Source of the DNA: an uncultured Gammaproteobacteria bacterium
GTDB taxonomy: Bacteria; Pseudomonadota; Gammaproteobacteria; GCA-001735895
Length of the DNA stretch: 64,000 bases
Assembly (NCBI GenBank): GCA_947259485.1
Contig: CAMYLU010000013.1
Coordinates: 25,065-89,064 of the forward strand
Direction of reading: 5' to 3'
The notes under the pieces were generated by a model. It searched no databases. It worked only from the letters and a program-made list of their open reading frames with translations, and was not told where the DNA came from. Of the stretch, positions 2,088-45,504 are shown piece by piece; within the stretch, counting starts at the first letter, position 1, and each line of letters starts with the position of its first letter. The position numbers and the translations under genes are program-made.

Positions 2088-2498
2088 ATGAGCATCGACA
2101 AACCCGTTAAGTTTTACTCGAGTAAACCGCGTGTGATTCACATGGCGATTAATATTGCATTGGCACCTGCCCTGCTTTACCTGATCGGCATCTGGCCCTG
2201 GCCACCAACCCTGCCGCATTACATCACATTTTTTGTTACCGGCCTGATCGGCATGCGTTATGCAAAGCAGCGGTTGGAACAAGCGCGACTTGCGGTCGAC
2301 AAAGATGGTCTATACGCCGGTGAATTTTACCCGACGGAGTCGATTCGAAACGTTCAAACCGTCATGCGTGCGTTAAAACTGACGCTGGTGCAGGACGGTG
2401 AAGTGCGGGAGAAAATCATCAACCTCGGCTGGGCGAGCAACGACGATTTCAACACCATCGTGCAACTCCTGGACGAACGCTTCAACCCGAAAAGTTGA
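2088..2498 (+). CDS. Hypothetical small membrane protein (two predicted TM helices in the N-terminal half)
   Basis: 136-aa ORF immediately downstream of aceK. Hydrophobic stretches IALAPALLYLIGIWPWPP and ITFFVTGLIGM. No recognisable catalytic motif. Confidence 0.45.
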   Translation: MSIDKPVKFYSSKPRVIHMAINIALAPALLYLIGIWPWPPTLPHYITFFVTGLIGMRYAKQRLEQARLAVDKDGLYAGEFYPTESIRNVQTVMRALKLTLVQDGEVREKIINLGWASNDDFNTIVQLLDERFNPKS

Positions 2499-2530
2499 TA
2501 TTCAGCACCACAGAACCCAGGCCTTAATGT

Positions 2531-2562
2531 AAGCAAAAAGAAGCCGGCACGAAGGCCGGCAA
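2531..2562 (-). terminator. Rho-independent terminator for the minus-strand operon 3671..2583
   Basis: Hairpin GCCGGC-acgaag-GCCGGC at 2543-2560. On the minus strand it is followed by TTCTTTTTGCTT. Confidence 0.5.
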
Positions 2563-2582
2563 AAGGGGAAAAGGATCGCAGC

Positions 2583-3371
2583 TCAGGGGAGCTTATTCTT
2601 CTTCTTATTTTCGCTGTTTTTACAGGGGGATAACGCGAGGGCTCCCCTGGCTGCGATCACAACCTGGATAATCAGGAAAAACGCCAGAAGTGACGCGATA
2701 CTGCCTCCGCCATGTGAATGATATTCCTCGTAATAGTAATCCTCGTAGGGATCATCCCAACTGCGGTCCTCGATCATGATGTCTCTGCCGAGATAGTAAT
2801 AATCGAGAACTTCGCTGGTTACCATATAGGCATGGTCGAGGCTGTAGATCTCGATCAATATGTCGTAATAACCCGGCGGGTATCCTTCAAGCAGTTCGGT
2901 TTCGACCTCGTAGGTGTCGGTAACATCAACACCGTGAATCGAAAACAGGTCGGTGGTGTAATACTGGCTCCAGGGCTCACCTTCCCGGCTCAGGTAAAGC
3001 TTGGCGTAAACCGTGGCGTTGTCATAACTGACATCTACGTCAAAATAGACGTTGATGGCGTGGTGGTAACCATCGCCATCGATGTCAGATATCAGCGCCA
3101 CGTCCGCATCATAGACCTCGAATAACTGGTCGTGTCGATTCGCAATACCGGCAAGACCCTGCCCGGCTCCTGAAGCCGCGTAATTCTCCGGCTCGGTGGG
3201 CCTGGCCTTGACTACCGGCTCGCGCTGTTGCAGCACCTGTGACAGATCGGTTTCCTGATCCAGTCGCAACTTGCCGGCCGAACGGCTGGACTGTTGCGGC
3301 TCCGCAGCGAGCGCGGGCAGGTCAAATCCCAGTAACACCAGCGACAGTAAAATGATTCCAAATGTTTTCAT
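2583..3371 (-). CDS. Secreted acidic Tyr/Asp-rich protein with a C-terminal GlyGly-CTERM-like sorting tail
   Basis: Signal peptide MKTFGIILLSLVLLGFDLPALA. The acidic, aromatic-rich body has a DIDGDGYHH motif. The C-terminus is ..HSHGGGS-IASLLAFFLIIQVVIAA-RGALALSPCKNSENKKKNKLP, i.e. Gly-Gly, a hydrophobic helix, then a basic tail. Confidence 0.6.
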   Translation of the reverse strand: MKTFGIILLSLVLLGFDLPALAAEPQQSSRSAGKLRLDQETDLSQVLQQREPVVKARPTEPENYAASGAGQGLAGIANRHDQLFEVYDADVALISDIDGDGYHHAINVYFDVDVSYDNATVYAKLYLSREGEPWSQYYTTDLFSIHGVDVTDTYEVETELLEGYPPGYYDILIEIYSLDHAYMVTSEVLDYYYLGRDIMIEDRSWDDPYEDYYYEEYHSHGGGSIASLLAFFLIIQVVIAARGALALSPCKNSENKKKNKLP

Positions 3372-3380
3372 CGTCTTTTA

Positions 3381-3671
3381 TTAGTGCTTGTAATGTTTGC
3401 GTCTTTTATTATGGTAGCCACCATGGCTGTGGCTGTGCCGGCGATGATGCTTGTAGCGGTGCGGCCGGTAGTGGCCGTAATGACCGCCGTAGTGACGCCC
3501 GTAATGACCGTGATGGCCATGATGAAACAGCGCGCTCAACGCAATAAAAGCCACCGCGGGTCCTACAATATTGTGACCATGGTGTGCGCTGGCCGGTGCA
3601 CTGGCTAAAGTTAAGACGACCACGCTTGCTGCCGCCATCATTCGTAGTTTGTTTACCTTCAAGTTAACCAT
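3381..3671 (-). CDS. Small secreted histidine/tyrosine/glycine-rich protein, putatively metal-binding
   Basis: 96 aa. Signal peptide MMAAASVVVLTLASAPASA followed by HHGHNIV..HHGHHGHYGRHYGGHYGHYRPHRYKHHRRHSHSHGGYHNKRRKHYKH. It lies 9 nt upstream of the 2583..3371 gene on the same strand. The plus-strand ORF 3384..3608 is antisense to it and lacks a signal peptide. Confidence 0.5.
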   Translation of the reverse strand: MVNLKVNKLRMMAAASVVVLTLASAPASAHHGHNIVGPAVAFIALSALFHHGHHGHYGRHYGGHYGHYRPHRYKHHRRHSHSHGGYHNKRRKHYKH

Positions 3672-3783
3672 TACTATCTCCCGTTGTGCCTGGTAACGAC
3701 GCCAATTTAGCGCGTGCTGTCTTAATCCAGGCTGAACCAGAAATATTTTTGATGAAAATGTTACTCAATTAAAACGGACGCTT

Positions 3784-4398
3784 ATGAATAGCCTTCGACT
3801 CGATTCCGCCAGCTTTACGCCCTCCAAGATCGTTTGTATCGGCCGCAATTACCTCGAGCATATTCGCGAACTGGGCAATGAAACCCCGGATCAGATGGTG
3901 ATTTTCAACAAGCCCAACTCGGCGATTTCGGCAACGCTTCATGCAACGCATGAAGAACCGCTGCACTATGAGGGCGAAATCTGCTTTATGGTGCGTAACA
4001 GAAAATTGCATGCTGTTGGTTTCGGGCTTGACTTGACCCGGCGCGAGCTCCAGTCAAACCTGAAAGCCAGGGGTTTACCCTGGGAGCGGGCCAAGGCCTT
4101 CGATGGCGCGGCATGCTTCAGCGATTTCATACCGCTTGGCGATATCGAGATTGCCAGCCTGTCTCTGCAACTCGAGATCAATGGTGAACTACGCCAGGAT
4201 GGCGGTTACGAATTAATGATGCACAAGCCTGAACAGATTCTGCTCGACATCCAGCAATTCATGACCCTTGAAGATGATGACATTATCATGACCGGTACGC
4301 CCAAAGGCGTTGGGCAGGTTCAGGCCGGCGATCGATTTGTCGGCAGCATCAGAAGCGACGATCAATTGCTGATCAGCCAGCTATGGCTAGCCGAGTAA
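3784..4398 (+). CDS. Fumarylacetoacetate hydrolase (FAH) family protein (YcgM-like)
   Basis: 204 aa with IVCIGRNYLEH.., ..MVIFNKP.., ..GEICFMV.. and ..DIIMTGTPKGVG.. motifs typical of the FAH fold. Confidence 0.85.
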   Translation: MNSLRLDSASFTPSKIVCIGRNYLEHIRELGNETPDQMVIFNKPNSAISATLHATHEEPLHYEGEICFMVRNRKLHAVGFGLDLTRRELQSNLKARGLPWERAKAFDGAACFSDFIPLGDIEIASLSLQLEINGELRQDGGYELMMHKPEQILLDIQQFMTLEDDDIIMTGTPKGVGQVQAGDRFVGSIRSDDQLLISQLWLAE

Positions 4399-14168: not shown

Positions 14169-14582
14169 TTAACCCTCGATCTCATCGGTATCGTATTGTC
14201 CCGACAGCTTGCGCCGCACATGCGACCAGGACATGCCGACCGCGAGGACGCCGGCCAGTACGAACAGCACGACCCACTGGATGACGGCCGTATCGTCGAG
14301 CGCGAAAAAACCCCACTCGATAAACAGCCAGATCAGGATTCCGAAAAAGGCAAGCGCAAGGGCCGTGCCGATGGGTCCTAGCGACCTCCAGGTCGCCCGC
14401 AGGAACATAACCCACCCGATTAACAGCACGATACCGGTGGCAGCCTTGTAGACGGTTGCAATATCTGATTGCAGCCAGCCAACCCAGGAATAACCGCTCG
14501 GGTTATAAGTCAGAAAAACGAGTGCGAGCGCAAACAGAAAACGTAGAAAAAAACTGCCTATGGAGAAATCGTTTCGGGCCAT
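14169..14582 (-). CDS. Hypothetical integral membrane protein (4 TM)
   Basis: 137 aa with four hydrophobic helices. No soluble domain. Confidence 0.5.
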   Translation of the reverse strand: MARNDFSIGSFFLRFLFALALVFLTYNPSGYSWVGWLQSDIATVYKAATGIVLLIGWVMFLRATWRSLGPIGTALALAFFGILIWLFIEWGFFALDDTAVIQWVVLFVLAGVLAVGMSWSHVRRKLSGQYDTDEIEG

Positions 14583-14659: not shown

Positions 14660-16123
14660 CTATGCCTGTTCGACAACCAGGGCGTCCCCAATTCTGATTA
14701 CCGCTTGCGCGAGTCCATCGACCTGAGAGTGATCCGTGCGGGCACCAAGAAAACAGGGGCGCAAAGCCAGTTGTCCGTTAATACGGGTAGTGCTTGGCAG
14801 GTATTCGTTTTCCCTGACCAGGCGTCGGCGGATTTTCTGGTTGAGTCGGTCAAGATCGTCAATCTGCGGCGCGACATAACGAAAGCAACAGACCGATAGA
14901 GTCGGTTCCAGTAACAATTCAAGCCTGGGGTGTTGCTTGCAAAATGCGGCAAGCTCGCGGGCCATATCATTGTGACGCACAATTCGCTCGCGCATACCCT
15001 CTACGCCAATCTCCCTGATCAGGGCCCAGACGACAATACCGCGCGGGGGTGCGCTAAGTTCTACGCCGTAGTCGAAATAACGAATACTGAAATCGTCAAG
15101 CGAATGTTCAAGTGGCGCCGTGGTAGCGTCGATATCATCGATCGACCCCTCCAGGTAATCGGAGGGCCCCTGGGTAAAAGCCCTTTGCAGTAATTCACGG
15201 TCATGCACAAAGGTCGCGGCAACCCCGACCGAAGCACCTAGCCATTTGTGTGGATCGACGATTATCGAGTCGACCAGCTCCAGTCCATCGTAAAGATCGC
15301 GCAAGCGCTCATCCAGGATACCGGGCAACCCGTAGGCACCATCCACATGCAGCCAGATTCCGTGTTCACGTGCGAGCTCGCCAATGGCACGCAACGGGTC
15401 AATCGCACCCCTGTTGGTGCTGCCCAGGTTAGCAACGATCGCCATGGGCAAAATATCGTCCTGCAGATCCTGTTCAATAGCTACCCGCAGCGCATCGGGA
15501 CGCATCCGGCCCTGGTCGTCACAGGCAATGGGCTTGATCGCTCGCCGTCCTATCCCGAGTACGCCGCCCGCTCGCTGGATGGTATGGTGACACTCGCTAC
15601 TCGCGTAAACACTGACGGCGCGGTTGACGCCGTCGCGCGCAGGATCATGGCCTGCTTTCTCAAACGCATATTGCCGTGCACCACCGAGTCCGACCAGGTT
15701 GGCGACCGAGCCTCCGCTACTGTAGATGCCTTTCATATTACCCAGGCCGCACATCTGCGCGAGCCAGTCGAGCGACAGTTCTTCGATAAAGTTGAATGCG
15801 GTGTGCATATATCTTTGTGGCGAGGCGATACTGGCGGCAGTCGATGCCAGCGTCGATGCGGTGGTCGCGCCGGTGGTAATATAAGAAGTAAATCCGGGTT
15901 TAGTCACTGCCGAACCATTGGGAATGATCTGTTCCAGCAGTTCACGGGTGACTTCATCGATGCCGACCCCTTGCTGCGGCACTGGTCTATCCAGTGCAGC
16001 CTTCCAGACGTTTTGTCGTGCCAGCGCGTCGGGGTGTTCAAACGCTAAAAACTGGTCGAGACCGGCGCCTACTCTCGCTAACAACTCCTGCAGGTTGCCG
16101 ACCTCAGCCTGATCCTGTGACAT
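14660..16123 (-). CDS. Pyridoxal phosphate-dependent group II decarboxylase (aromatic-amino-acid, glutamate or diaminobutyrate decarboxylase family)
   Basis: 487 aa. ..SGGSVANLVGL.., ..HVDGAYG.. and the PLP-lysine motif ..DPHKWLG.. characteristic of group II decarboxylases. Confidence 0.85.
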   Translation of the reverse strand: MSQDQAEVGNLQELLARVGAGLDQFLAFEHPDALARQNVWKAALDRPVPQQGVGIDEVTRELLEQIIPNGSAVTKPGFTSYITTGATTASTLASTAASIASPQRYMHTAFNFIEELSLDWLAQMCGLGNMKGIYSSGGSVANLVGLGGARQYAFEKAGHDPARDGVNRAVSVYASSECHHTIQRAGGVLGIGRRAIKPIACDDQGRMRPDALRVAIEQDLQDDILPMAIVANLGSTNRGAIDPLRAIGELAREHGIWLHVDGAYGLPGILDERLRDLYDGLELVDSIIVDPHKWLGASVGVAATFVHDRELLQRAFTQGPSDYLEGSIDDIDATTAPLEHSLDDFSIRYFDYGVELSAPPRGIVVWALIREIGVEGMRERIVRHNDMARELAAFCKQHPRLELLLEPTLSVCCFRYVAPQIDDLDRLNQKIRRRLVRENEYLPSTTRINGQLALRPCFLGARTDHSQVDGLAQAVIRIGDALVVEQA

Positions 16124-16164: not shown

Positions 16165-18249
16165 TTATCGGTTAGCAGCAAGCGACGCAATGCGCAGCCG
16201 AAATTCCGCCCCAGGCTCACAGTTAACAACATCGACTTCGGTTTGCATTGCACTTGCAAGTTGACGTACCAGCGCCAGGCCGATGCCGGTGCCGACGGTT
16301 TCACGCGTAAGCTCGTTCTCGGAGCGGTAAAACAGTTTGAAAATCTTCTTCATCTGGTCCGGATCGATACCGGGTCCGTAATCGCGCACCGAAAACTGAA
16401 TCTTGCCGTCCTGCATTTGCTGACAGCGAATGTCGATTCGCTTTTGGGCACCGTTAACGGAAAACTTGACCGCATTATCCACCAGGTTGATAAAAATCTG
16501 GATGAACCAGTCGATGTCAATTTTAATTCGAGCCGACTCAACTTCCTGTGTCCCCGTAATCAGCAGGTCGAACTCCGAGGGTTCGAGTTGCGATTCGAGG
16601 CGTGGTTTGAGCTCCGCCAGCGCCTCGCCAACGGTCATCTCAGTGAGCGTGCCAGCCTGCTCGTTACGAGACATACGCGCCAGCTGCAGTACATTATTGA
16701 TCAGCCGCGTGAGTCGTTCCGCCTCGTAAAAAATAAAATCATAATAGGTTTTACGTTTTGCCTTGTCGGCCCAGCCCTCGCGCAGCATTTCTCCATACAT
16801 TCGAATCGATGTCAGTGGAGTTTTAAGTTCGTGGCTGACCGCGGAAACAAAATCCTGTTGCTGCCGCGCCAGGGCGAGCTGACGTTGACCCAGTCGAAGC
16901 AGCATCAGGCAACCACCCACCAGCACGATCGCGAGCACCACCGCCGACCAGATGATGACCTGACCACCGGCGCCGACCGGCAATCTCGCCAGTGCATAAA
17001 TCAGCTCGATATCGCCAAACGGCGCAATCAAACGGCTCTGGTAGAGCAACTCGTTACTCACCTGCCCGGTACTGGGGCGATACTGTCGACTGTAATCGGC
17101 GGCAAAGTTTTCCAGGATCGAGCCGCGGTAGGCGACAATCAGTTTACTCATCGATGACAGGCTCGATTCGCGAAACGCCGGTGCAATCAAGCCTTCAATG
17201 AAATTCGCCTGGTCGATCAGAATACCCTGCACGTAGCGTTCATTGCTATGCCAGACACGCCGGAACAGGACGAAGTGCCCGCTGTCGAGCAGCGCAAATT
17301 CCATCGGCTCGACTTCACTCTCGAATGTCTGAATCCGGATCGCTCGCTGATCCAGCATCGGCTCGGCAAACACTACCTCGTTATCCACAGTTTCAGCGGC
17401 TCTTTTCTCAAGGCTTAGCGCCTGCTCGAGCATGGCCTGTGGCAGGTTTACCTTTTCCTTGCGCGAACGCCGTGATTCCGCCTGTTTTGTCTCCTCCCGT
17501 CGCTGCATCTCCGGTTTGGCTTCGGCGGCTATCTGGAAGCTGTCTTCGAGTTTAAGGTCCTTGACCTGGTCTACAGGTGCGCTGCTTTCAGCAGGGGCAT
17601 TTAATTTCCGCGTGGTCAATTCATCGAAGGCCGACTGTCCCTCGGTATCACCATCATCCATCGCGATACTCGAACTCATGCTGTCGACCTCGGTGGTCAG
17701 ACTCGGCGCATCGGAGCGCGCCGCTTGGGCTACCTCTTCCTCGGCAAGAATTTCACCGACCGCCGGTGATGCCGCGAGATCACTTTTGCCGACCAGGCGG
17801 TTTTGATCGAGAATGCCGCGAATGCGACCTTCCTGCTGCTCGCGCTGTTGTAGTTCGGATGACGAAATGCCATAGCTGGACGCATTGGCTTCGGGCACGG
17901 TTGGGGTACGCAGCTGCCCTGCAGAATCGACCTGGAAATAACCCAGCAAGCCTGGCACCTCGGCCTCCAGCGGGAACTGTGACAGTGGTGAGCGCTGCAG
18001 AAAGGCGGACCCTTCAGAGCCGCTGACATTGAGAAATTCATAGTCGCTGATGGGTCGGCTTTCTTCGCGCTCAATCAGGTTTCGAAATTCGCTGTCGATG
18101 CGTAAGCTCAACTCGCGGGCAAGCTGCTGATGCTGGTAGAAAGCCTCCCATTTCAACTGCCCGTAGGCATGGTAAACCAGGATCGAGGTCGGTAACGCCA
18201 GCGCCACGAAAAACAGTACCAGCAACAGGGTGAGGCGCCGCTGGGTCAT
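16165..18249 (-). CDS. Sensor histidine kinase with a large (~380 aa) extracytoplasmic sensing region
   Basis: 694 aa. TM1 at residues ~7-27, a long periplasmic domain with an E/Q/S-rich low-complexity stretch, and TM2 around residue 430. HisKA box ..SAVSHELKTPLTSIRMY.. is followed by HATPase N/G boxes (..NLVDNAVKFS.., ..DYGPGI.., ..GTGIGLAL..). Confidence 0.85.
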   Translation of the reverse strand: MTQRRLTLLLVLFFVALALPTSILVYHAYGQLKWEAFYQHQQLARELSLRIDSEFRNLIEREESRPISDYEFLNVSGSEGSAFLQRSPLSQFPLEAEVPGLLGYFQVDSAGQLRTPTVPEANASSYGISSSELQQREQQEGRIRGILDQNRLVGKSDLAASPAVGEILAEEEVAQAARSDAPSLTTEVDSMSSSIAMDDGDTEGQSAFDELTTRKLNAPAESSAPVDQVKDLKLEDSFQIAAEAKPEMQRREETKQAESRRSRKEKVNLPQAMLEQALSLEKRAAETVDNEVVFAEPMLDQRAIRIQTFESEVEPMEFALLDSGHFVLFRRVWHSNERYVQGILIDQANFIEGLIAPAFRESSLSSMSKLIVAYRGSILENFAADYSRQYRPSTGQVSNELLYQSRLIAPFGDIELIYALARLPVGAGGQVIIWSAVVLAIVLVGGCLMLLRLGQRQLALARQQQDFVSAVSHELKTPLTSIRMYGEMLREGWADKAKRKTYYDFIFYEAERLTRLINNVLQLARMSRNEQAGTLTEMTVGEALAELKPRLESQLEPSEFDLLITGTQEVESARIKIDIDWFIQIFINLVDNAVKFSVNGAQKRIDIRCQQMQDGKIQFSVRDYGPGIDPDQMKKIFKLFYRSENELTRETVGTGIGLALVRQLASAMQTEVDVVNCEPGAEFRLRIASLAANR

Positions 18250-18944
18250 TGCTCGGCAAGCATCAGGCGATAGCCGGCACCGCGCACCGTGACAATGGCT
18301 TCGGGGTTGGCGGGATGGATTTCAATTTTGCGGCGCAACTTGGCAATATGAATGTCGACGGTACGGGTTTCTATTTCCATGTGATTGGCATAGCCCCAGA
18401 CTCGTGCGAGCAGTTCCTCACGCGATACCGGACGCTCCGATTGCTGGCAAAGATAGTGCAGCAGGTCCATTTCACGGCGCGTAAAAACGGTGTCCCCGGC
18501 GCATAGATTCTCGGTATCGATGACGAGACCATTGTTGAGTTTGATTTCCCGAACCGAGGCTTCATCGAAACCCGAACGTCGCAATACCGCCTCCACGCGC
18601 AGTACCAGCTGTGTTACCGAAAAAGGCTTGGCGACGTAATCGTCAGCGCCCAGGGTAAGGCCCTGGACGATATCTTCGTCACTCGATTTTGCGGTCAGCA
18701 TGATAACGGGCTGCTGGCGGTCCTGTTGGCGGATACGATTACAGATTTCAAAGCCATCGACACCTGGCAACATGACATCGAGCAGAATCAGGTCAAATTG
18801 CCCGCTTAGCGCTTTGCGCAGACCGTCATCACCGTGATCGGCGGTGTCAACCTCGTAGCCATGGTAGACAAAAACATCGACCAGCCCGCTACGTATTGCG
18901 GCCTCGTCTTCAACGATCAGCAAGCGCGCTTTCTGCGCCATCAC
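18246..18944 (-). CDS. OmpR-family response regulator (REC plus winged-helix DNA-binding domain)
   Basis: 232 aa. ..LLIVEDEAAIRSGL..DLILLDVMLPGVDGFEI..MLTAK.. receiver domain and C-terminal ..RVWGY....RTVDIHIAKLRRKIE.. trans_reg_C. Its stop overlaps the kinase start by 4 nt. Confidence 0.9.
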   Translation of the reverse strand: MMAQKARLLIVEDEAAIRSGLVDVFVYHGYEVDTADHGDDGLRKALSGQFDLILLDVMLPGVDGFEICNRIRQQDRQQPVIMLTAKSSDEDIVQGLTLGADDYVAKPFSVTQLVLRVEAVLRRSGFDEASVREIKLNNGLVIDTENLCAGDTVFTRREMDLLHYLCQQSERPVSREELLARVWGYANHMEIETRTVDIHIAKLRRKIEIHPANPEAIVTVRGAGYRLMLAEQ

Positions 18945-19107: not shown

Positions 19108-19638
19108 ATGGCATTGGTAACCCGACTATCACGACTGTTTCAGGCCGATTTCCACGCGGTCCTCGATCGCATCGAGGAACCCGACCTGCAACTCAGGCAG
19201 GCGGTCCGTGAAATGCAATTCACGCTCGACCAGGATCAACAACGCCTGAAGCTACTGCAGCACGAGGCTGCCCAACTCGACAAGGCGGCTAAGGCTACCT
19301 CGACAAGCCTTGAAGGCTACGACGAAGAGCTGGACATCTGCCTGGCCGCGAAAAAAGACGACCTGGCGCGCGATTTAATTCGTCGCAAACTCGTCAGCGA
19401 AAAACAGCTGCAGACATTGCAGCAGCAGTTCACCAGCGTTGAATTACAGCGCCAGAATCTTGAACAGCAAATCGACGAACAAAACCAGCAATTAACCAGC
19501 ATGAAGCAAAAACTCGAGCTGCTGGTCAGCGACGATGAAGGTTTCGGCAGGGGCGAATTCAACCACGCTGACACGATCCGCGGCGAGGAAATTGAAATTG
19601 CTTTACTGCGCGAAAAACAACGGAGGGCCAAAGCATGA
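19108..19638 (+). CDS. PspA/IM30 (phage shock protein A / Vipp1) family protein
   Basis: 176 aa all-helical coiled coil. The N-terminus MALVTRLSRLFQADFHAVLDRIEEPDLQLRQAVREMQFTL parallels PspA [40 protein letters not shown]. Shorter than E. coli PspA. Confidence 0.72.
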   Translation: MALVTRLSRLFQADFHAVLDRIEEPDLQLRQAVREMQFTLDQDQQRLKLLQHEAAQLDKAAKATSTSLEGYDEELDICLAAKKDDLARDLIRRKLVSEKQLQTLQQQFTSVELQRQNLEQQIDEQNQQLTSMKQKLELLVSDDEGFGRGEFNHADTIRGEEIEIALLREKQRRAKA

Positions 19639-43483: not shown

Positions 43484-44143
43484 ATGGATATTCAAATCCC
43501 ATCCGGTACTACTTCTGATACGAGGCGTTTTCGTATCGCTTTTATTGTCGCATTTTCATTCGCGCTATTGCTTTGGGCATTGCATCTTGCCGAGTACCTT
43601 AGCGGATTCGATTTGACTCAATTCGGTGTTTATCCGCGCCGTGCGCTCGGACTTATAGGGATTCTCTGTGCACCCTTTATCCATGTCTCTGTGTCCCACC
43701 TATTCGCCAACACCCCGCCGATTATTGTGATTGGCACAATGCTGCTCTACGGATACCCCCGAGCGTCTAAAGTGTTTTTACCGGTCGTCTATCTTGGCAG
43801 TGGCATCGCAGTGTGGTTATTTGCCCGAGAGGCCTATCATATCGGCGCAAGCGGACTCGCTTTCGGTATGTTGTTCTTTGTCTTTACGATTGGGGCACTT
43901 CGTTGGGAGCGGCGTACCATAGCCATCTCACTGTTGGTATTTTTTCTATACGGAGGCATGATTTCGGGTGTGATACCGGGTGAGCAGGAAATTTCTTTCG
44001 AGTCGCATTTAAGTGGTGCGCTGATCGGGATATTGCTGGCCTTCTTATTGCGACATCGTGATCCAGAGCCGCCGCGTAAACAATACAGTTGGGAGCAAGA
44101 GGAGGCGGAATCCGAAGATTACGACTGTCCAGACCGGGATTAG
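43484..44143 (+). CDS. Rhomboid-family intramembrane serine protease (candidate rhombosortase)
   Basis: 219 aa, 6 TM. Catalytic Ser in GASGLAFGML (GxSG) and His in ..ESHLSGALIGILLA... Its small size is in the range of rhombosortases. Confidence 0.72.
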   Translation: MDIQIPSGTTSDTRRFRIAFIVAFSFALLLWALHLAEYLSGFDLTQFGVYPRRALGLIGILCAPFIHVSVSHLFANTPPIIVIGTMLLYGYPRASKVFLPVVYLGSGIAVWLFAREAYHIGASGLAFGMLFFVFTIGALRWERRTIAISLLVFFLYGGMISGVIPGEQEISFESHLSGALIGILLAFLLRHRDPEPPRKQYSWEQEEAESEDYDCPDRD

Positions 44144-44604: not shown

Positions 44605-45504
44605 ATGTCCAAATCAACCAGTATCGATCAGGTAGTTCCCAAGGCTATCCGAACCAAAGTTGCCAAAGCGAAGAAAGGTGACATTCTTGGTTGGGAATAC
44701 CCTCATAAAAAAAAGATGAGTCGCATGAAATACGAATCGATGAAACTCGATTTGCAGATTGAACTTCTCAAAATGGAAAAATGGATCAAGGACAGCGGAA
44801 AGAAGGTGGTGATGTTGTTCGAGGGCCGCGATGCCGGGGGAAAAGGTGGAACGATCAAGCGCTTCACTGAACACATGAACCCACGAGGCGCCAGGGTGGT
44901 AGCTCTTGAGAAACCCAATAGAACTGAGCTCAGGCAATGGTATTTTCAGCGCTACATCCAACAATTGCCAATCGAAGGTGAAATCGTTTTCTTCGATCGG
45001 TCATGGTACAACCGCGCCGTCGTCGAACCGGTGATGGGCTTTTGTAAACCGGCAGATACCCGTCTTTTCCTGAAACATGCGCCCATCCTGGAAAAAATGC
45101 TGGTTGAAAACGGCTTCCTTTTTTACAAATTCTGGTTTTCGGTGAGTCGCCCTGAACAATTTCGTCGCTTCAAGTCACGGGAAGAGGACAGGTTAAAACA
45201 ATGGAAGCTGAGCCCAGTCGACTTACAATCTCTGAGCAAGTGGAACGAGTATTCCAAATCGATCGCCAGAATGTTCGAGTACACGGACACCCCCGAATCA
45301 CCCTGGCTAGTTGTGCGTTCCGATGACAAGAAACGGGCGAGACTCAACTGCATTATGCATGTCCTGAACTCACTGCCCTATTCAAACAAGAACAAAAAAC
45401 TCGTGGTCGCACCCGATCCCCGAATCATAGGGCCGGCGAAAACCATGTATGAGTCATTCGCAGAAAAGCAATCCATGAAAAAAGGAACGGTAACTCATAA
45501 GTAG
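44605..45504 (+). CDS. Polyphosphate kinase 2 (PPK2) family nucleotide phosphotransferase
   Basis: 299 aa. Walker A-like ..MLFEGRDAGGKGGTIKR.. and PPK2 core ..FDRSWYNR.., with the lid region. Confidence 0.85.
   Translation: MSKSTSIDQVVPKAIRTKVAKAKKGDILGWEYPHKKKMSRMKYESMKLDLQIELLKMEKWIKDSGKKVVMLFEGRDAGGKGGTIKRFTEHMNPRGARVVALEKPNRTELRQWYFQRYIQQLPIEGEIVFFDRSWYNRAVVEPVMGFCKPADTRLFLKHAPILEKMLVENGFLFYKFWFSVSRPEQFRRFKSREEDRLKQWKLSPVDLQSLSKWNEYSKSIARMFEYTDTPESPWLVVRSDDKKRARLNCIMHVLNSLPYSNKNKKLVVAPDPRIIGPAKTMYESFAEKQSMKKGTVTHK

What the first reader, a model, noticed from the sequence alone, without database searches (positions are those of the whole stretch)
2583..3671. Operon of a His/Tyr/Gly-rich secreted peptide and an acidic Tyr-rich secreted protein ending in a GlyGly-CTERM-like sorting signal
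Two minus-strand genes 9 nt apart share a divergent promoter region with the FAH gene and a downstream terminator. The first encodes a 96-aa exported protein that after its signal peptide is almost entirely His, Tyr, Gly, Arg and Lys (HHGHHGHYGRHYGGHYGHY..HHRRHSHSHGGYHNKRRKHYKH), a candidate Ni/Zn/Cu-binding or metal-buffering peptide. The second encodes a 262-aa acidic, Tyr/Asp-rich protein (DIDGDGYHH.., DYYYEEYHSHGGG) whose C-terminus is Gly-Gly, a hydrophobic helix, then a KKKNK basic tail. That is the architecture recognised by rhombosortase. The pairing of a poly-His/Tyr basic peptide with an acidic poly-Tyr/Asp partner is unusual and suggests a metal-handling or biomineral/adhesive function at the cell surface.
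Basis: partly seen in the sequence, partly recalled or inferred. Interest (0 to 1): 0.55.

Follow-up and report, generated by a model that had tools for sequence, protein, structure and literature searches.

The report
Surface protein gene with small His-rich partner
Two adjacent genes, always found together in a group of uncultured marine Gammaproteobacteria, encode a calcium-binding-type envelope protein of a named but unstudied family ('choice-of-anchor H') and a previously unclassified small His/Tyr-rich protein that is probably anchored in the membrane rather than secreted; what the pair does is unknown.

Summary
Two minus-strand genes lie 9 nt apart (3381..3671 and 2583..3371) and are followed by a hairpin terminator.

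- **262-aa protein.** It is a clear member of NCBIfam NF038116, 'choice-of-anchor H' (123 bits, cutoff 53). Other family members end in GlyGly-CTERM, MYXO-CTERM or JDVT-CTERM sorting signals.
- **Its tail.** It has the GlyGly-CTERM layout (GGGS, membrane helix, basic residues) but does not match TIGR03501. It is longer than the canonical signal and unusually conserved (QVVIAARG..P).
- **Rhomboid gene.** The only one in the window (43484..44143) is not of the rhombosortase type.
- **96-aa His-rich ORF.** It is a real gene under purifying selection, with no Pfam or NCBIfam match. In every locus examined that retained upstream sequence it sits directly upstream of this variant-tail clade of the family. 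It is absent from 80 loci of a canonical-tail clade.
- **Overlooked feature.** After the signal peptide comes a conserved 15-residue hydrophobic segment, then a very basic tail. The tail is therefore probably cytoplasmic, not secreted. His content ranges from 0 to 52% across the family.
- **Promoter.** A conserved hexamer direct repeat suggests control by a response regulator.

The metal-binding function is untested. Verdict: a new variant of a known kind, of moderate interest.

The parts
3381..3671 (-). Gene for a 96-aa small His/Tyr/Gly/Arg-rich protein (new family, no Pfam or NCBIfam match). It comprises a signal peptide (aa 1-29), a conserved hydrophobic segment (aa 35-49) and a basic disordered tail (aa 50-96).
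   Evidence: ORF. No family hit. 28 homologues by single-sequence search and 123 by profile. Purifying selection in this frame. AF2 gives helices 4-23 and 36-52 with a disordered tail.
3585..3671 (-). Signal peptide of the small protein: MVNLKVNKLRMMAAASVVVLTLASAPASA, with a likely cleavage site after A-S-A.
   Evidence: A29 is invariant; P26 and A27 are nearly invariant. Hydropathy. No signal-peptide predictor was available, so cleavage is inferred from the AxA pattern.
3525..3569 (-). Conserved second hydrophobic segment IVGPAVAFIALSALF with an invariant Pro38. Probably a stop-transfer membrane helix with N-terminus out and C-terminus in.
   Evidence: It is the most conserved part of the peptide. 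Kyte-Doolittle 2.33 over 15 residues against 2.05 for the signal peptide. In 113 of 117 homologues the C-terminal flank is more positive than the N-terminal flank.
3414..3434 (-). Conserved C-terminal motif S-x-S-x-G-G-Y (window: HSHSHGGY) inside the basic tail.
   Evidence: Y86 is invariant; S80, S82 and G85 are nearly invariant in A5. The motif is found in 102 of 117 homologues.
2583..3371 (-). Gene for a 262-aa choice-of-anchor H family protein. It comprises a signal peptide (aa 1-23), a conserved SSRSAGKL region, a beta-sandwich domain (aa 84-206), an acidic Tyr-rich linker and a C-terminal anchor.
   Evidence: NF038116 at E=7.9e-36, 123 bits against a cutoff of 53. 395 homologues and 633 50%-identity clusters. 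Alignment A2.
2754..3122 (-). Choice-of-anchor H domain (aa 84-206), with DxDxDG (D96, D98, D100, G101) and further near-invariant acidic residues (D111, D113, D152, E201). Probably a Ca2+-binding beta-sandwich.
   Evidence: HMM match to residues 84-206. Near-invariant columns across 141 representatives. The AF2 model is all-beta in this region but has low confidence. Foldseek gives only generic beta-sandwich matches. Ca2+ binding is inferred from the DxDxDG motif.
2586..2711 (-). C-terminal anchor GGGS-IASLLAFFLIIQVVIAA-RGALALSP-CKNSENKKKNKLP. It has the GlyGly-CTERM layout but is a divergent, clade-specific and strongly conserved variant.
   Evidence: No TIGR03501 hit. Mean pairwise identity of the membrane helix is 0.61, against 0.24 in a canonical-tail clade. 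Gln in the helix in 104 of 105 clade members against 6 of 89 outside.
3704..3737 (-). Conserved promoter element. Two hexamers GTTCAG-N5-ATTAAG (3737..3721, 11-bp period) lie 11 nt upstream of a TAnAnT -10-like box (TAAATT, 3709..3704), with no sigma-70 -35 box. Probably the binding site of an OmpR/PhoB-type activator.
   Evidence: It is present at a fixed distance (46-54 nt, mostly 50-51) from the start codon in all 36 sequences examined (window plus 35 loci), with or without the divergent FAH gene. It is the only match in the 64-kb window, against 0.04 expected. The promoter scan found no sigma-70 promoter on this strand. Function is inferred.
3677..3682 (-). Shine-Dalgarno-like GGGAGA, 5 nt upstream of the ATG of the small gene.
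   Evidence: Read from the sequence. GGAG is conserved in the upstream alignment.
2533..2560 (-). Intrinsic-terminator-like hairpin plus T-run, 23 nt after the stop codon of the second gene.
   Evidence: 6 GC pairs, loop of 6, then TTCTTTTT.
43484..44143 (+). Context only: a 219-aa, six-helix rhomboid-family intramembrane serine protease of the general type, not the rhombosortase type. It is a candidate processing enzyme, but no link to the operon is shown.
   Evidence: Pfam PF01694 at E=2.6e-18. TIGR03902 at 31.9 bits against a cutoff of 84. GASG serine with Phe at +4 and an H..G...G motif.

Best explanation
SHOWN.
- This is a conserved two-gene operon of an uncultured marine and sediment Gammaproteobacteria lineage.
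- Gene 2 encodes a member of the curated but uncharacterised 'choice-of-anchor H' family.
- Gene 1 encodes a previously unclassified small protein family. It occurs only next to the clade of choice-of-anchor H genes that carries an atypical, strongly conserved C-terminal tail.

INFERRED.
- Both products enter the Sec pathway and lose a signal peptide.
- The large protein places an acidic, Tyr-rich beta-sandwich domain with a DxDxDG motif (probably Ca2+-binding) on the outer face of the inner membrane. It is held there by a C-terminal helix derived from a GlyGly-CTERM-type sorting signal.
- The small protein inserts like a phage procoat protein. About 5 residues (xH-rich) face the periplasm, then comes a 15-17-residue helix. 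The roughly 47-residue cationic, disordered His/Tyr/Gly/Arg tail stays in the cytoplasm.
- I propose that the small protein is a dedicated membrane partner of the large protein's conserved anchor. It would bind that anchor, or control its retention or intramembrane cleavage. Its His-rich tail could bind metal or polyanions on the cytoplasmic side.
- Transcription probably depends on an OmpR/PhoB-type response regulator bound to a hexamer direct repeat that takes the place of the -35 box.
For: Family membership: NF038116 at 123 bits against a cutoff of 53.

Pairing:
- The His-rich ORF ends 6-85 nt (mostly 6-30) upstream of the CoA-H match in every locus of the clade that has upstream DNA, down to 49% identity.
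- It is also there in the most distant peptide hits, where the downstream flank differs.
- It is absent from an Acidiferrobacterales homologue with a Cys-containing GGC-type tail resembling the family's JDVT-CTERM tails (L036).
- It is absent from 80 loci of a canonical-tail clade.

Real gene: codon-position bias.

Variant anchor:
- No TIGR03501 hit.
- Helix identity 0.61 against 0.24 in the canonical clade.
- Gln in the helix in 104 of 105 clade members against 6 of 89 outside.

Topology of the small protein:
- The second hydrophobic segment is as hydrophobic as the signal peptide.
- N-flank charge averages -0.95 and C-flank charge +2.44. The C-flank is the more positive in 113 of 117 members. 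The tail has net charge +11 and 1.7% D+E.
- AF2 gives helices 4-23 and 36-52 and a disordered tail.

Promoter. A hexameric direct repeat with a 5-bp spacer is the architecture of PhoP boxes (PMC2681069).
Against: - No experiment and no complex prediction supports contact between the two proteins.
- Conservation in the two hydrophobic segments shows no significant helical periodicity (p=0.23 and 0.27). It forms a contiguous block, which fits recognition by an enzyme as well as it fits helix packing.
- The second hydrophobic segment is short (15 residues), contains Gly-Pro and is flanked by His. By my hand calculation with the Hessa biological hydrophobicity scale, recalled from memory, it is only marginal as a membrane helix. 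The peptide could therefore be fully exported.
- Adjacency could partly reflect vertical inheritance, because the pair sits at one syntenic site next to rpsT in the whole clade.
- The GGGS motif is still conserved, which argues that the tail is still cleaved like a sorting signal.
- Ca2+ binding, metal binding and response-regulator control are all inferred from motifs.
Confidence: 0.45

Rival explanations
1. The small protein is fully exported and acts as a periplasmic or surface His-rich binder of Ni, Zn or Cu. The large protein is an ordinary GlyGly-CTERM substrate: rhombosortase cleaves it, it is lipid-anchored, and type II secretion moves it to the cell surface. There the basic His/Tyr peptide and the acidic Tyr/Asp protein associate.
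For: - The tail has the tripartite layout, and its GGGS motif aligns with the GG motif of family members that match TIGR03501.
- Even canonical-looking family tails score only 13.6-15.1 bits against a cutoff of 15.5, so failing this short model is weak evidence.
- The charges are complementary: ectodomain 40 D/E against 11 K/R; peptide tail 11 K/R against 0 D/E.
- The peptide's second hydrophobic segment is short and contains Gly-Pro.
Against: - No TIGR03501 hit at E<=10.
- 21 residues follow the helix core, against 0-5 in canonical tails (PMC3237569).
- There is no Pro in the helix (PMC11389362).
- The rhomboid in the window is not of the rhombosortase type.
- The charge asymmetry around the peptide's hydrophobic segment predicts a cytoplasmic tail.
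- His content of the tail ranges from 0 to 52% across the family.
- The acidic Tyr-rich linker also occurs in clades that have no peptide.
Confidence: 0.25
2. Both products are substrates of an intramembrane (rhomboid-type) protease. Each would be a type I single-pass protein with small or helix-breaking residues at the outer end of its helix (GGGS in one, G-P in the other). Cleavage would release the ectodomain of the large protein. It would also release the cationic tail fragment of the small protein into the cytoplasm as a signal.
For: - Predicted N-out, C-in topology for both.
- Invariant Pro38 and frequent Gly37 in the peptide's helix.
- Known rhomboid substrates have at least 40 residues beyond the helix (PMC3237569), and the peptide has 47.
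- An active-type rhomboid gene lies in the window.
- In Vibrio cholerae, GlpG also cleaves a GlyGly-CTERM protein (PMC11389362).
Against: This is purely architectural. The rhomboid gene is 40 kb away and nothing shows co-distribution with the operon. No cleavage data exist. Most bacteria carry a general rhomboid.
Confidence: 0.12
3. The small protein is a secreted cationic peptide, histatin-like in composition, with antimicrobial or adhesive/coacervate function. The neighbouring acidic protein would neutralise it or serve as scaffold or immunity.
For: Only composition: H/Y/G/R/K-rich, net charge +11, disordered. The resemblance to histatin-5 and to His/Gly/Tyr-rich structural peptides is from my own knowledge.
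Against: There is no transporter, immunity or modification gene in the conserved neighbourhood. The conserved hydrophobic segment and the charge asymmetry argue for membrane retention. The pair is chromosomal and vertically inherited next to housekeeping genes.
Confidence: 0.05
4. The His-rich ORF is not a gene, and the plus-strand ORF 3384..3608, or nothing at all, is expressed there.
For: The antisense frame is open in the window and in most homologues.
Against: Third-position bias and 63% against 16% synonymous changes favour the minus frame. The signal peptide, Pro38 and the SxSxGGY motif are conserved, and indels come in whole codons. An SD-like GGGAGA and a conserved promoter sit at a fixed distance.
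Confidence: 0.01

Closest known systems
Choice-of-anchor H family (NCBIfam NF038116, Sden1266_dom)
   Same: The 262-aa protein matches the full 124-position domain model well above the cutoff. It shares the family layout: signal peptide, variable N-terminal region, DxDxDG beta-sandwich domain, acidic Tyr-rich linker, His-Gly-Gly motif and a C-terminal helix.
   Different: The family has no known function. This clade has an atypical, highly conserved tail (QVVIAARG..P) that matches none of the sorting-signal models found elsewhere in the family. It also has a dedicated upstream small-protein gene that other clades lack.
GlyGly-CTERM / rhombosortase sorting (TIGR03501 / TIGR03902; VesB of Vibrio cholerae)
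   Same: The tail has the tripartite layout with a GGGS motif at the outer end of a C-terminal helix followed by basic residues. It is homologous in position to tails of family members that match TIGR03501. The predicted N-out, C-in topology matches the description in PMC3237569.
   Different: There is no model hit. The tail extends 21 residues beyond the helix core. An invariant Gln is present in the helix and no Pro. The helix sequence is conserved rather than free to vary. No rhombosortase was detected in the window.
Small single-pass membrane proteins made with a cleavable signal peptide (M13 procoat type), and small membrane proteins with His-rich tails such as CbtB (own knowledge)
   Same: Signal peptide, then a very short periplasmic stretch, one hydrophobic helix and a basic C-terminal tail. 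CbtB likewise combines one helix with a His-rich tail.
   Different: There is no sequence relationship: no Pfam, NCBIfam or other hit. The tail is much longer and richer in Tyr/Gly/Arg. The partner is a choice-of-anchor H protein, not a transporter.
PhoP/PmrA-type promoters (hexamer direct repeat with 5-bp spacer in place of the -35 box)
   Same: Two hexamers with an 11-bp period lie 11-12 nt upstream of a -10-like box, with no -35 box. [quoted passage not shown]
   Different: The sequence is GGTTCA-N5-GATTMA (also readable as RTTMAG-N5-ATTMAG). It resembles my recalled PhoP and PmrA consensus sequences but is not identical to them. No regulator was identified. The OmpR-type pair at 16165..18944 is only a candidate.

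Membership tests
Choice-of-anchor H (NF038116) | Score of the domain HMM at or above the curated cutoff (53 bits) | tested here: met
   123 bits, E=7.9e-36, residues 84-206 against profile positions 2-124 of 124.
Choice-of-anchor H (NF038116) | N-terminal signal peptide and a C-terminal membrane-anchor or sorting region that differs between members | tested here: met
   N-terminal hydrophobic region with ALA|AE and a C-terminal helix. Family members carry GlyGly-CTERM (29), MYXO-CTERM (10) or JDVT-CTERM (6) tails out of 141. The signal peptide was judged by eye and hydropathy, not with a predictor.
GlyGly-CTERM (TIGR03501) | HMM score at or above the cutoff (15.5 bits) | tested here: not met
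   No hit at E<=10 for the whole protein or for the isolated tail. Canonical-looking relatives score 13.6-15.1 bits. The best E-value in the family is 9.4e-4.
GlyGly-CTERM (TIGR03501) | Tripartite layout: Gly-rich motif without Cys, hydrophobic helix, basic residues | tested here: met
   GGGS / IASLLAFFLIIQVVIAA / R...KKKNK. G223 is 93% and S224 87% conserved in the clade.
GlyGly-CTERM (TIGR03501) | Position at the extreme C-terminus (a region of about 22 residues; zero to five residues beyond the helix, per PMC3237569) | tested here: not met
   42 residues from GGGS to the end, with 21 residues after the helix core. The median in the family is 11.
GlyGly-CTERM (TIGR03501) | Helix-breaking Pro and a key Leu in the helix (needed for RssP cleavage of VesB; PMC11389362) | tested here: not met
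   There is no Pro between G223 and R242; the first Pro is P249. Pro occurs in the helix in 2 of 105 clade members. This is a requirement shown for VesB, not a formal criterion of the family.
GlyGly-CTERM (TIGR03501) | Rhombosortase (TIGR03902) encoded in the same genome | not testable with these tools
   Only 64 kb of the genome is available. The complete chromosome of a relative (CP070646.1, locus L014) could not be scanned.
Rhombosortase (TIGR03902), for ORF 43484..44143 | HMM score at or above 84 bits, and His at catalytic Ser+4 (SGMLH signature; PMC3237569) | tested here: not met
   31.9 bits. The sequence is GASGLAF, so Phe is at +4. It is a rhomboid (PF01694, E=2.6e-18) with catalytic Ser and His motifs present.
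Known His-rich metal-binding or small membrane protein families (e.g. CbtB, Hpn) | Significant match to a curated model | tested here: not met
   No Pfam or NCBIfam family at E<=10 for the whole peptide or the mature part. All 123 homologues are unnamed, 'hypothetical', or in one case given an evidently spurious TrbL label.

The most novel reading that the evidence does not exclude
In this lineage a C-terminal sorting signal of the GlyGly-CTERM type has become a partner-dependent anchor. The small His/Tyr-rich membrane protein would be a dedicated accessory subunit that binds the conserved LxxQVVIAARG helix. It would gate intramembrane cleavage or release of the Ca2+-binding surface protein. 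Its cytoplasmic His-rich tail would couple this step to metal status. The whole module would be switched on by a PhoP/PmrA-like two-component system. This would be the first substrate-specific cofactor described for rhomboid- or rhombosortase-type protein sorting.
Probability: 0.12. Interest if true: 0.7.

Novelty: new variant of a known kind. Interest (0 to 1): 0.42.

Why it matters
C-terminal sorting signals (LPXTG, PEP-CTERM, GlyGly-CTERM and others) are usually described as a simple pair: one signal and one processing enzyme. Here one clade of a 'choice-of-anchor' family has three linked peculiarities:
- a frozen, atypical anchor sequence;
- a strictly co-inherited small membrane protein of an unclassified family, known from only about 120 sequence clusters in 5.8 billion;
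- its own regulator-type promoter.

If the small protein modulates anchoring or cleavage, that would add an accessory component to rhomboid-type sorting.

If instead the His-rich tail buffers metals, it would be a new kind of small membrane-bound metal-binding protein. The organisms that carry it are uncultured bacteria recovered mainly from marine and sediment metagenomes.

Either way, the finding gives the uncharacterised choice-of-anchor H family its first functional handle: a partner, a candidate regulator-binding site and a probable Ca2+ site.

Tried and rejected
1. Helix-face idea. I tested whether conservation in the two hydrophobic segments follows a helical face, as helix-helix packing would predict. 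Periodicity near 100 degrees is not significant (p=0.23 and 0.27). Conservation is a contiguous block, so I dropped the idea.
3. Antisense frame. Whether it is open does not discriminate between frames, because His codons have no antisense stop codons. I used codon-position statistics instead.
4. Source contig. Looking it up through the exact peptide found nothing on record.
5. Diverse alignment. The 141-sequence alignment was too divergent for a metagenome scan. I used a subclade alignment instead.
6. RNA elements. No Rfam family matches 2300..4100, so there is no riboswitch or other known RNA element.
7. Further copies of the promoter hexamer repeat. Exact pattern: only the operon's own site. 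With 2 mismatches: 23 matches against about 20 expected, which is chance. No regulon and no autoregulated regulator could be identified.
8. Other proteins with a GlyGly-like tail. Among window ORFs of at least 100 aa, none besides the large protein combines a signal peptide with a C-terminal helix, apart from multi-pass membrane proteins.
9. Literature. 33 papers mention 'choice-of-anchor'. None of the 15 listed titles concerns family H, and I did not search for that name specifically.
Full report
**1. Observation**

A six-GC-pair hairpin followed by TTCTTTTT lies 23 nt after the second stop codon (2560..2543). A 112-nt region separates the first gene from a divergent fumarylacetoacetate-hydrolase-family gene at 3784..4398 (NF007967, E=6e-39).

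The compositions quoted are correct.
- The last 47 residues of the small protein are H17 G8 Y7 R7 K4 S2 P1 N1, with no Asp or Glu.
- The mature large protein has 41 Asp+Glu, 17 Lys+Arg and 23 Tyr.
- It ends HSHGGGS-IASLLAFFLIIQVVIAA-RGALALSPCKNSENKKKNKLP.

Residues 35-49 of the small protein (IVGPAVAFIALSALF) form a hydrophobic segment. It is as hydrophobic as the signal peptide itself (Kyte-Doolittle 2.33 against 2.05 over 15 residues).

**2. The small ORF is a real gene**

Single-sequence search found 28 homologues and a profile search found 123, all 56-130 aa (nearly all 83-130). Alignments show four conserved features:
- an invariant Ala at the predicted signal-peptidase site (SAPAxA|);
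- a His in the first two mature residues;
- an invariant Pro38 inside the hydrophobic segment;
- a C-terminal S-x-S-x-G-G-Y motif.

Codon alignments of 21 orthologues give a clear signal. Among single-nucleotide codon differences, 5446 fall at position 3, 1580 at position 1 and 728 at position 2. 63% are synonymous in the minus frame and only 16% in the antisense frame. The plus-strand ORF 3384..3608 stays open only because CAC and CAT codons have no stop codon in antisense.

**3. The large protein belongs to a named family**

It matches NCBIfam NF038116 ('choice-of-anchor H family protein', Sden1266_dom) with 123 bits against a cutoff of 53, over the whole 124-position model. It has no Pfam domain.

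An exhaustive HMMER search finds 633 50%-identity clusters. Most are proteins of 240-300 aa with a single domain. Some have two domains, and a few are giant repeat proteins.

Across 141 representatives, the near-invariant positions include D96, D98, D100 and G101 (a DxDxDG motif) and D111, D113, D152 and E201. From general knowledge of DxDxDG sites, this suggests a Ca2+-binding beta-sandwich.

AlphaFold2 gave an all-beta domain, but with low confidence (pLDDT 58). Foldseek found only generic Ig- or FnIII-like sandwiches. Fold therefore adds nothing on function.

**4. The C-terminal tail**

All 141 representatives match NF038116. In addition, 29 match GlyGly-CTERM (TIGR03501), 10 match MYXO-CTERM, 6 match JDVT-CTERM and 6 match the SVAGG GlyGly-CTERM family. 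The family is thus a true 'choice of anchor'.

The GGGS motif of the window protein aligns with the GG motif of the other members (G223 is at least 90% conserved). In layout and by homology, the tail derives from a sorting signal of the GlyGly-CTERM type.

It is nevertheless not a canonical one.
- It does not match TIGR03501 at E<=10, either whole or as an isolated tail. This short model is weak, however: canonical-looking relatives reach only 13.6-15.1 bits against a cutoff of 15.5.
- It has 21 residues after the hydrophobic core, where canonical signals have zero to five (PMC3237569).
- It has no Pro in the helix. VesB needs Pro395 for cleavage by rhombosortase (PMC11389362). Pro occurs in the helix in 2 of 105 clade members.
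- It carries a nearly invariant Gln, present in 104 of 105 clade members against 6 of 89 outside.
- Its helix is conserved as a sequence. Mean pairwise identity is 0.61 for the helix and 0.60 for RGALALSP, against 0.73 for the domain. In a canonical-tail clade of similar depth the helix has 0.24 against 0.60 for the domain.
- The conserved part is a contiguous block (L233, Q236-V-V-I-A-A-R-G243, P249).

**5. Rhombosortase**

The window contains one rhomboid gene (43484..44143; 219 aa, six predicted helices; PF01694, E=2.6e-18). Its only NCBIfam hit is rhombosortase, but at 31.9 bits against a cutoff of 84. It has Phe at Ser+4 (GASGLAF), where rhombosortases have the hallmark His (SGMLH; PMC3237569). 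It is therefore a general rhomboid.

Whether the genome encodes a true rhombosortase elsewhere cannot be tested from 64 kb. In Vibrio cholerae the general rhomboid GlpG also cleaves a GlyGly-CTERM protein, at a different site (PMC11389362). A general rhomboid therefore remains a possible processing enzyme.

**6. The pairing is strict and specific to the clade**

A scan of one genome per species found 36 loci, all in uncultured MAGs: 31 labelled Gammaproteobacteria, three labelled only Proteobacteria, one Acidiferrobacterales and one Haliangium sp. One is a complete 3.7-Mb chromosome.

In every clade locus that has upstream DNA, a signal-peptide-bearing His/Tyr-rich ORF ends 6-85 nt (mostly 6-30) before the CoA-H match. 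This holds down to 49% identity of the large protein.

The pair sits next to rpsT throughout the clade. The FAH gene is missing in about nine loci. In others, extra genes separate the pair from the downstream 136-aa gene and aceK.

In the most distant peptide hits (27-32% identity) the downstream flank is entirely different (MTTB and DAO genes). The peptide gene is still directly followed by a choice-of-anchor H gene with the ..QVVIAARG.. type of tail.

The partner is absent in two comparisons:
- an Acidiferrobacterales homologue with a Cys-containing GGC-type tail resembling the family's JDVT-CTERM tails has no such partner (L036);
- none of 80 metagenome loci of a clade with canonical HGGS-helix-R/K tails has one.

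The small protein therefore goes with the variant tail, not with the domain. The acidic Tyr-rich linker and the His before GG are also general features of the family. They are not adaptations to the peptide.

**7. Topology of the small protein**

I analysed 117 family members.
- The second hydrophobic segment has a median length of 15 residues. Its hydropathy is 2.18, against 2.35 for the signal peptide.
- Its N-terminal flank has a mean net charge of -0.95, and its 15-residue C-terminal flank +2.44. The C-flank is the more positive in 113 of 117.
- The tail has a median of 52 residues, net charge +11 and 1.7% Asp+Glu.

This is the charge pattern of a helix with its N-terminus out and its C-terminus in (positive-inside rule). 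AlphaFold2 predicts helices 4-23 and 36-52 and a disordered tail.

I therefore think membrane retention more likely, at about 60%. The protein would insert as a hairpin and be cleaved like a phage procoat protein. That would leave roughly five periplasmic residues, one helix and the cationic tail in the cytoplasm.

The segment is short, contains Gly-Pro and is flanked by His. By my hand calculation with the Hessa biological hydrophobicity scale, recalled from memory, it is only marginal as a membrane helix. Full export is therefore not excluded.

His content of the tail varies from 0 to 52% (median 27%), while Tyr (13%), basic charge and the SxSxGGY motif are constant. Poly-His metal binding is thus not the conserved property of the family.

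**8. Regulation**

The upstream region carries a conserved element: GGTTCAGCCTGGATT(A/C)AG, then 11 nt, then TA.A.T. In all 36 sequences examined (the window plus 35 loci) it lies at a fixed distance, mostly 50-51 nt, from the start codon. This is so whether or not the divergent FAH gene is present.

It consists of two hexamers with a 5-nt spacer (11-bp period) abutting a -10-like box, with no sigma-70 -35 box. This is the architecture described for PhoP boxes (PMC2681069). From memory, PmrA and other OmpR/PhoB-type activators use the same architecture.

The exact pattern occurs only once in the window, against 0.04 expected. Relaxed versions occur at the chance rate. An OmpR-type regulator and kinase lie at 16165..18944, but nothing links them to the operon. 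No Rfam element is present.

**9. Interpretation**

What the locus is stands on firm ground. It is a conserved, probably regulator-controlled two-gene envelope module. It consists of a choice-of-anchor H protein with a divergent anchor derived from a GlyGly-CTERM signal, and a new small membrane-protein family.

How it works is inference. My preferred model has both products as type I membrane proteins. The small one would be a dedicated partner of the conserved anchor, stabilising it or gating its cleavage. Its cationic His/Tyr tail would sit in the cytoplasm.

Also possible are a model in which both proteins are rhomboid substrates, and a model of a secreted cationic peptide. No test available here separates these.

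**10. Novelty**

The large protein's family is already curated, although no study of it was found (none of the 15 listed titles among 33 hits concerns family H). The small protein family, its strict coupling to a variant anchor, and the conserved promoter are not in Pfam or NCBIfam. I rate the finding as a new variant of a known kind, of moderate interest.

Noticed in passing
window 3704..3737 (minus strand): A conserved promoter element: hexamer direct repeat GTTCAG-N5-ATTAAG, then 11 nt, then TAAATT. It lies at a fixed distance from the operon's start codon in all 36 sequences examined (window plus 35 loci) and has no -35 box. It looks like the site of an OmpR/PhoB-type (PhoP/PmrA-like) activator.
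   Followed up: partly
window 43484..44143 (+): A 219-aa, six-helix rhomboid-family protease. Its only NCBIfam hit is rhombosortase, but far below the cutoff (31.9 against 84 bits), and it has Phe instead of the hallmark His at Ser+4. A PPK2 polyphosphate kinase gene follows at 44605..45504.
   Followed up: partly
window 16165..18944 (-): An OmpR-family response regulator (232 aa) and a 694-aa sensor histidine kinase with no equivalog assignment. A PspA-like gene lies divergently at 19108..19638. The pair is a candidate regulator of the operon, but no evidence links them.
   Followed up: partly
window 2088..2498 (+): A 136-aa protein with a hydrophobic N-terminal half and no Pfam or NCBIfam match, convergent with the operon. 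Homologues (50-82% identity) lie next to aceK in all related loci that extend that far.
   Followed up: no
L050 4751..4957, L062 4701..4901, L087 4742..4936, L102 4654..4845: In another choice-of-anchor H clade, a roughly 65-aa ORF with about 25% His (MHVIDVRRDRDHHRRYHQKYHQMHH...) and no signal peptide lies about 900 nt downstream of the gene in four loci. It may be an out-of-frame artefact of a real gene.
   Followed up: no
P0149 (4976 aa), P0153 (1864 aa), P0156, P0178, P0196: Some family members are giant proteins with 3-11 copies of the choice-of-anchor H domain. Two of them (P0153, P0178) end in sequences that look like type IX secretion C-terminal domains. The domain is therefore also used as a repeat module in large surface proteins.
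   Followed up: no
L022 5935..6876, L023 5995..6696; P0138: A few orthologues have a changed or truncated C-terminus (L022, L023) or a frameshifted peptide (P0138). These are probably assembly errors or pseudogenes.
   Followed up: no
window 3414..3434 and 2700..2720 (minus strand): Both proteins carry an S-H/Y-G-G motif. In the peptide it is HSHSHGGY near its C-terminus. In the large protein it is YHSHGGGS just before its helix. It could be coincidence or a shared recognition element, and it remains unexplained.
   Followed up: partly
window 14169..14582 (-): A DUF6524 membrane protein (E=1.3e-46), next to a pyridoxal-dependent decarboxylase gene at 14660..16123.
   Followed up: no
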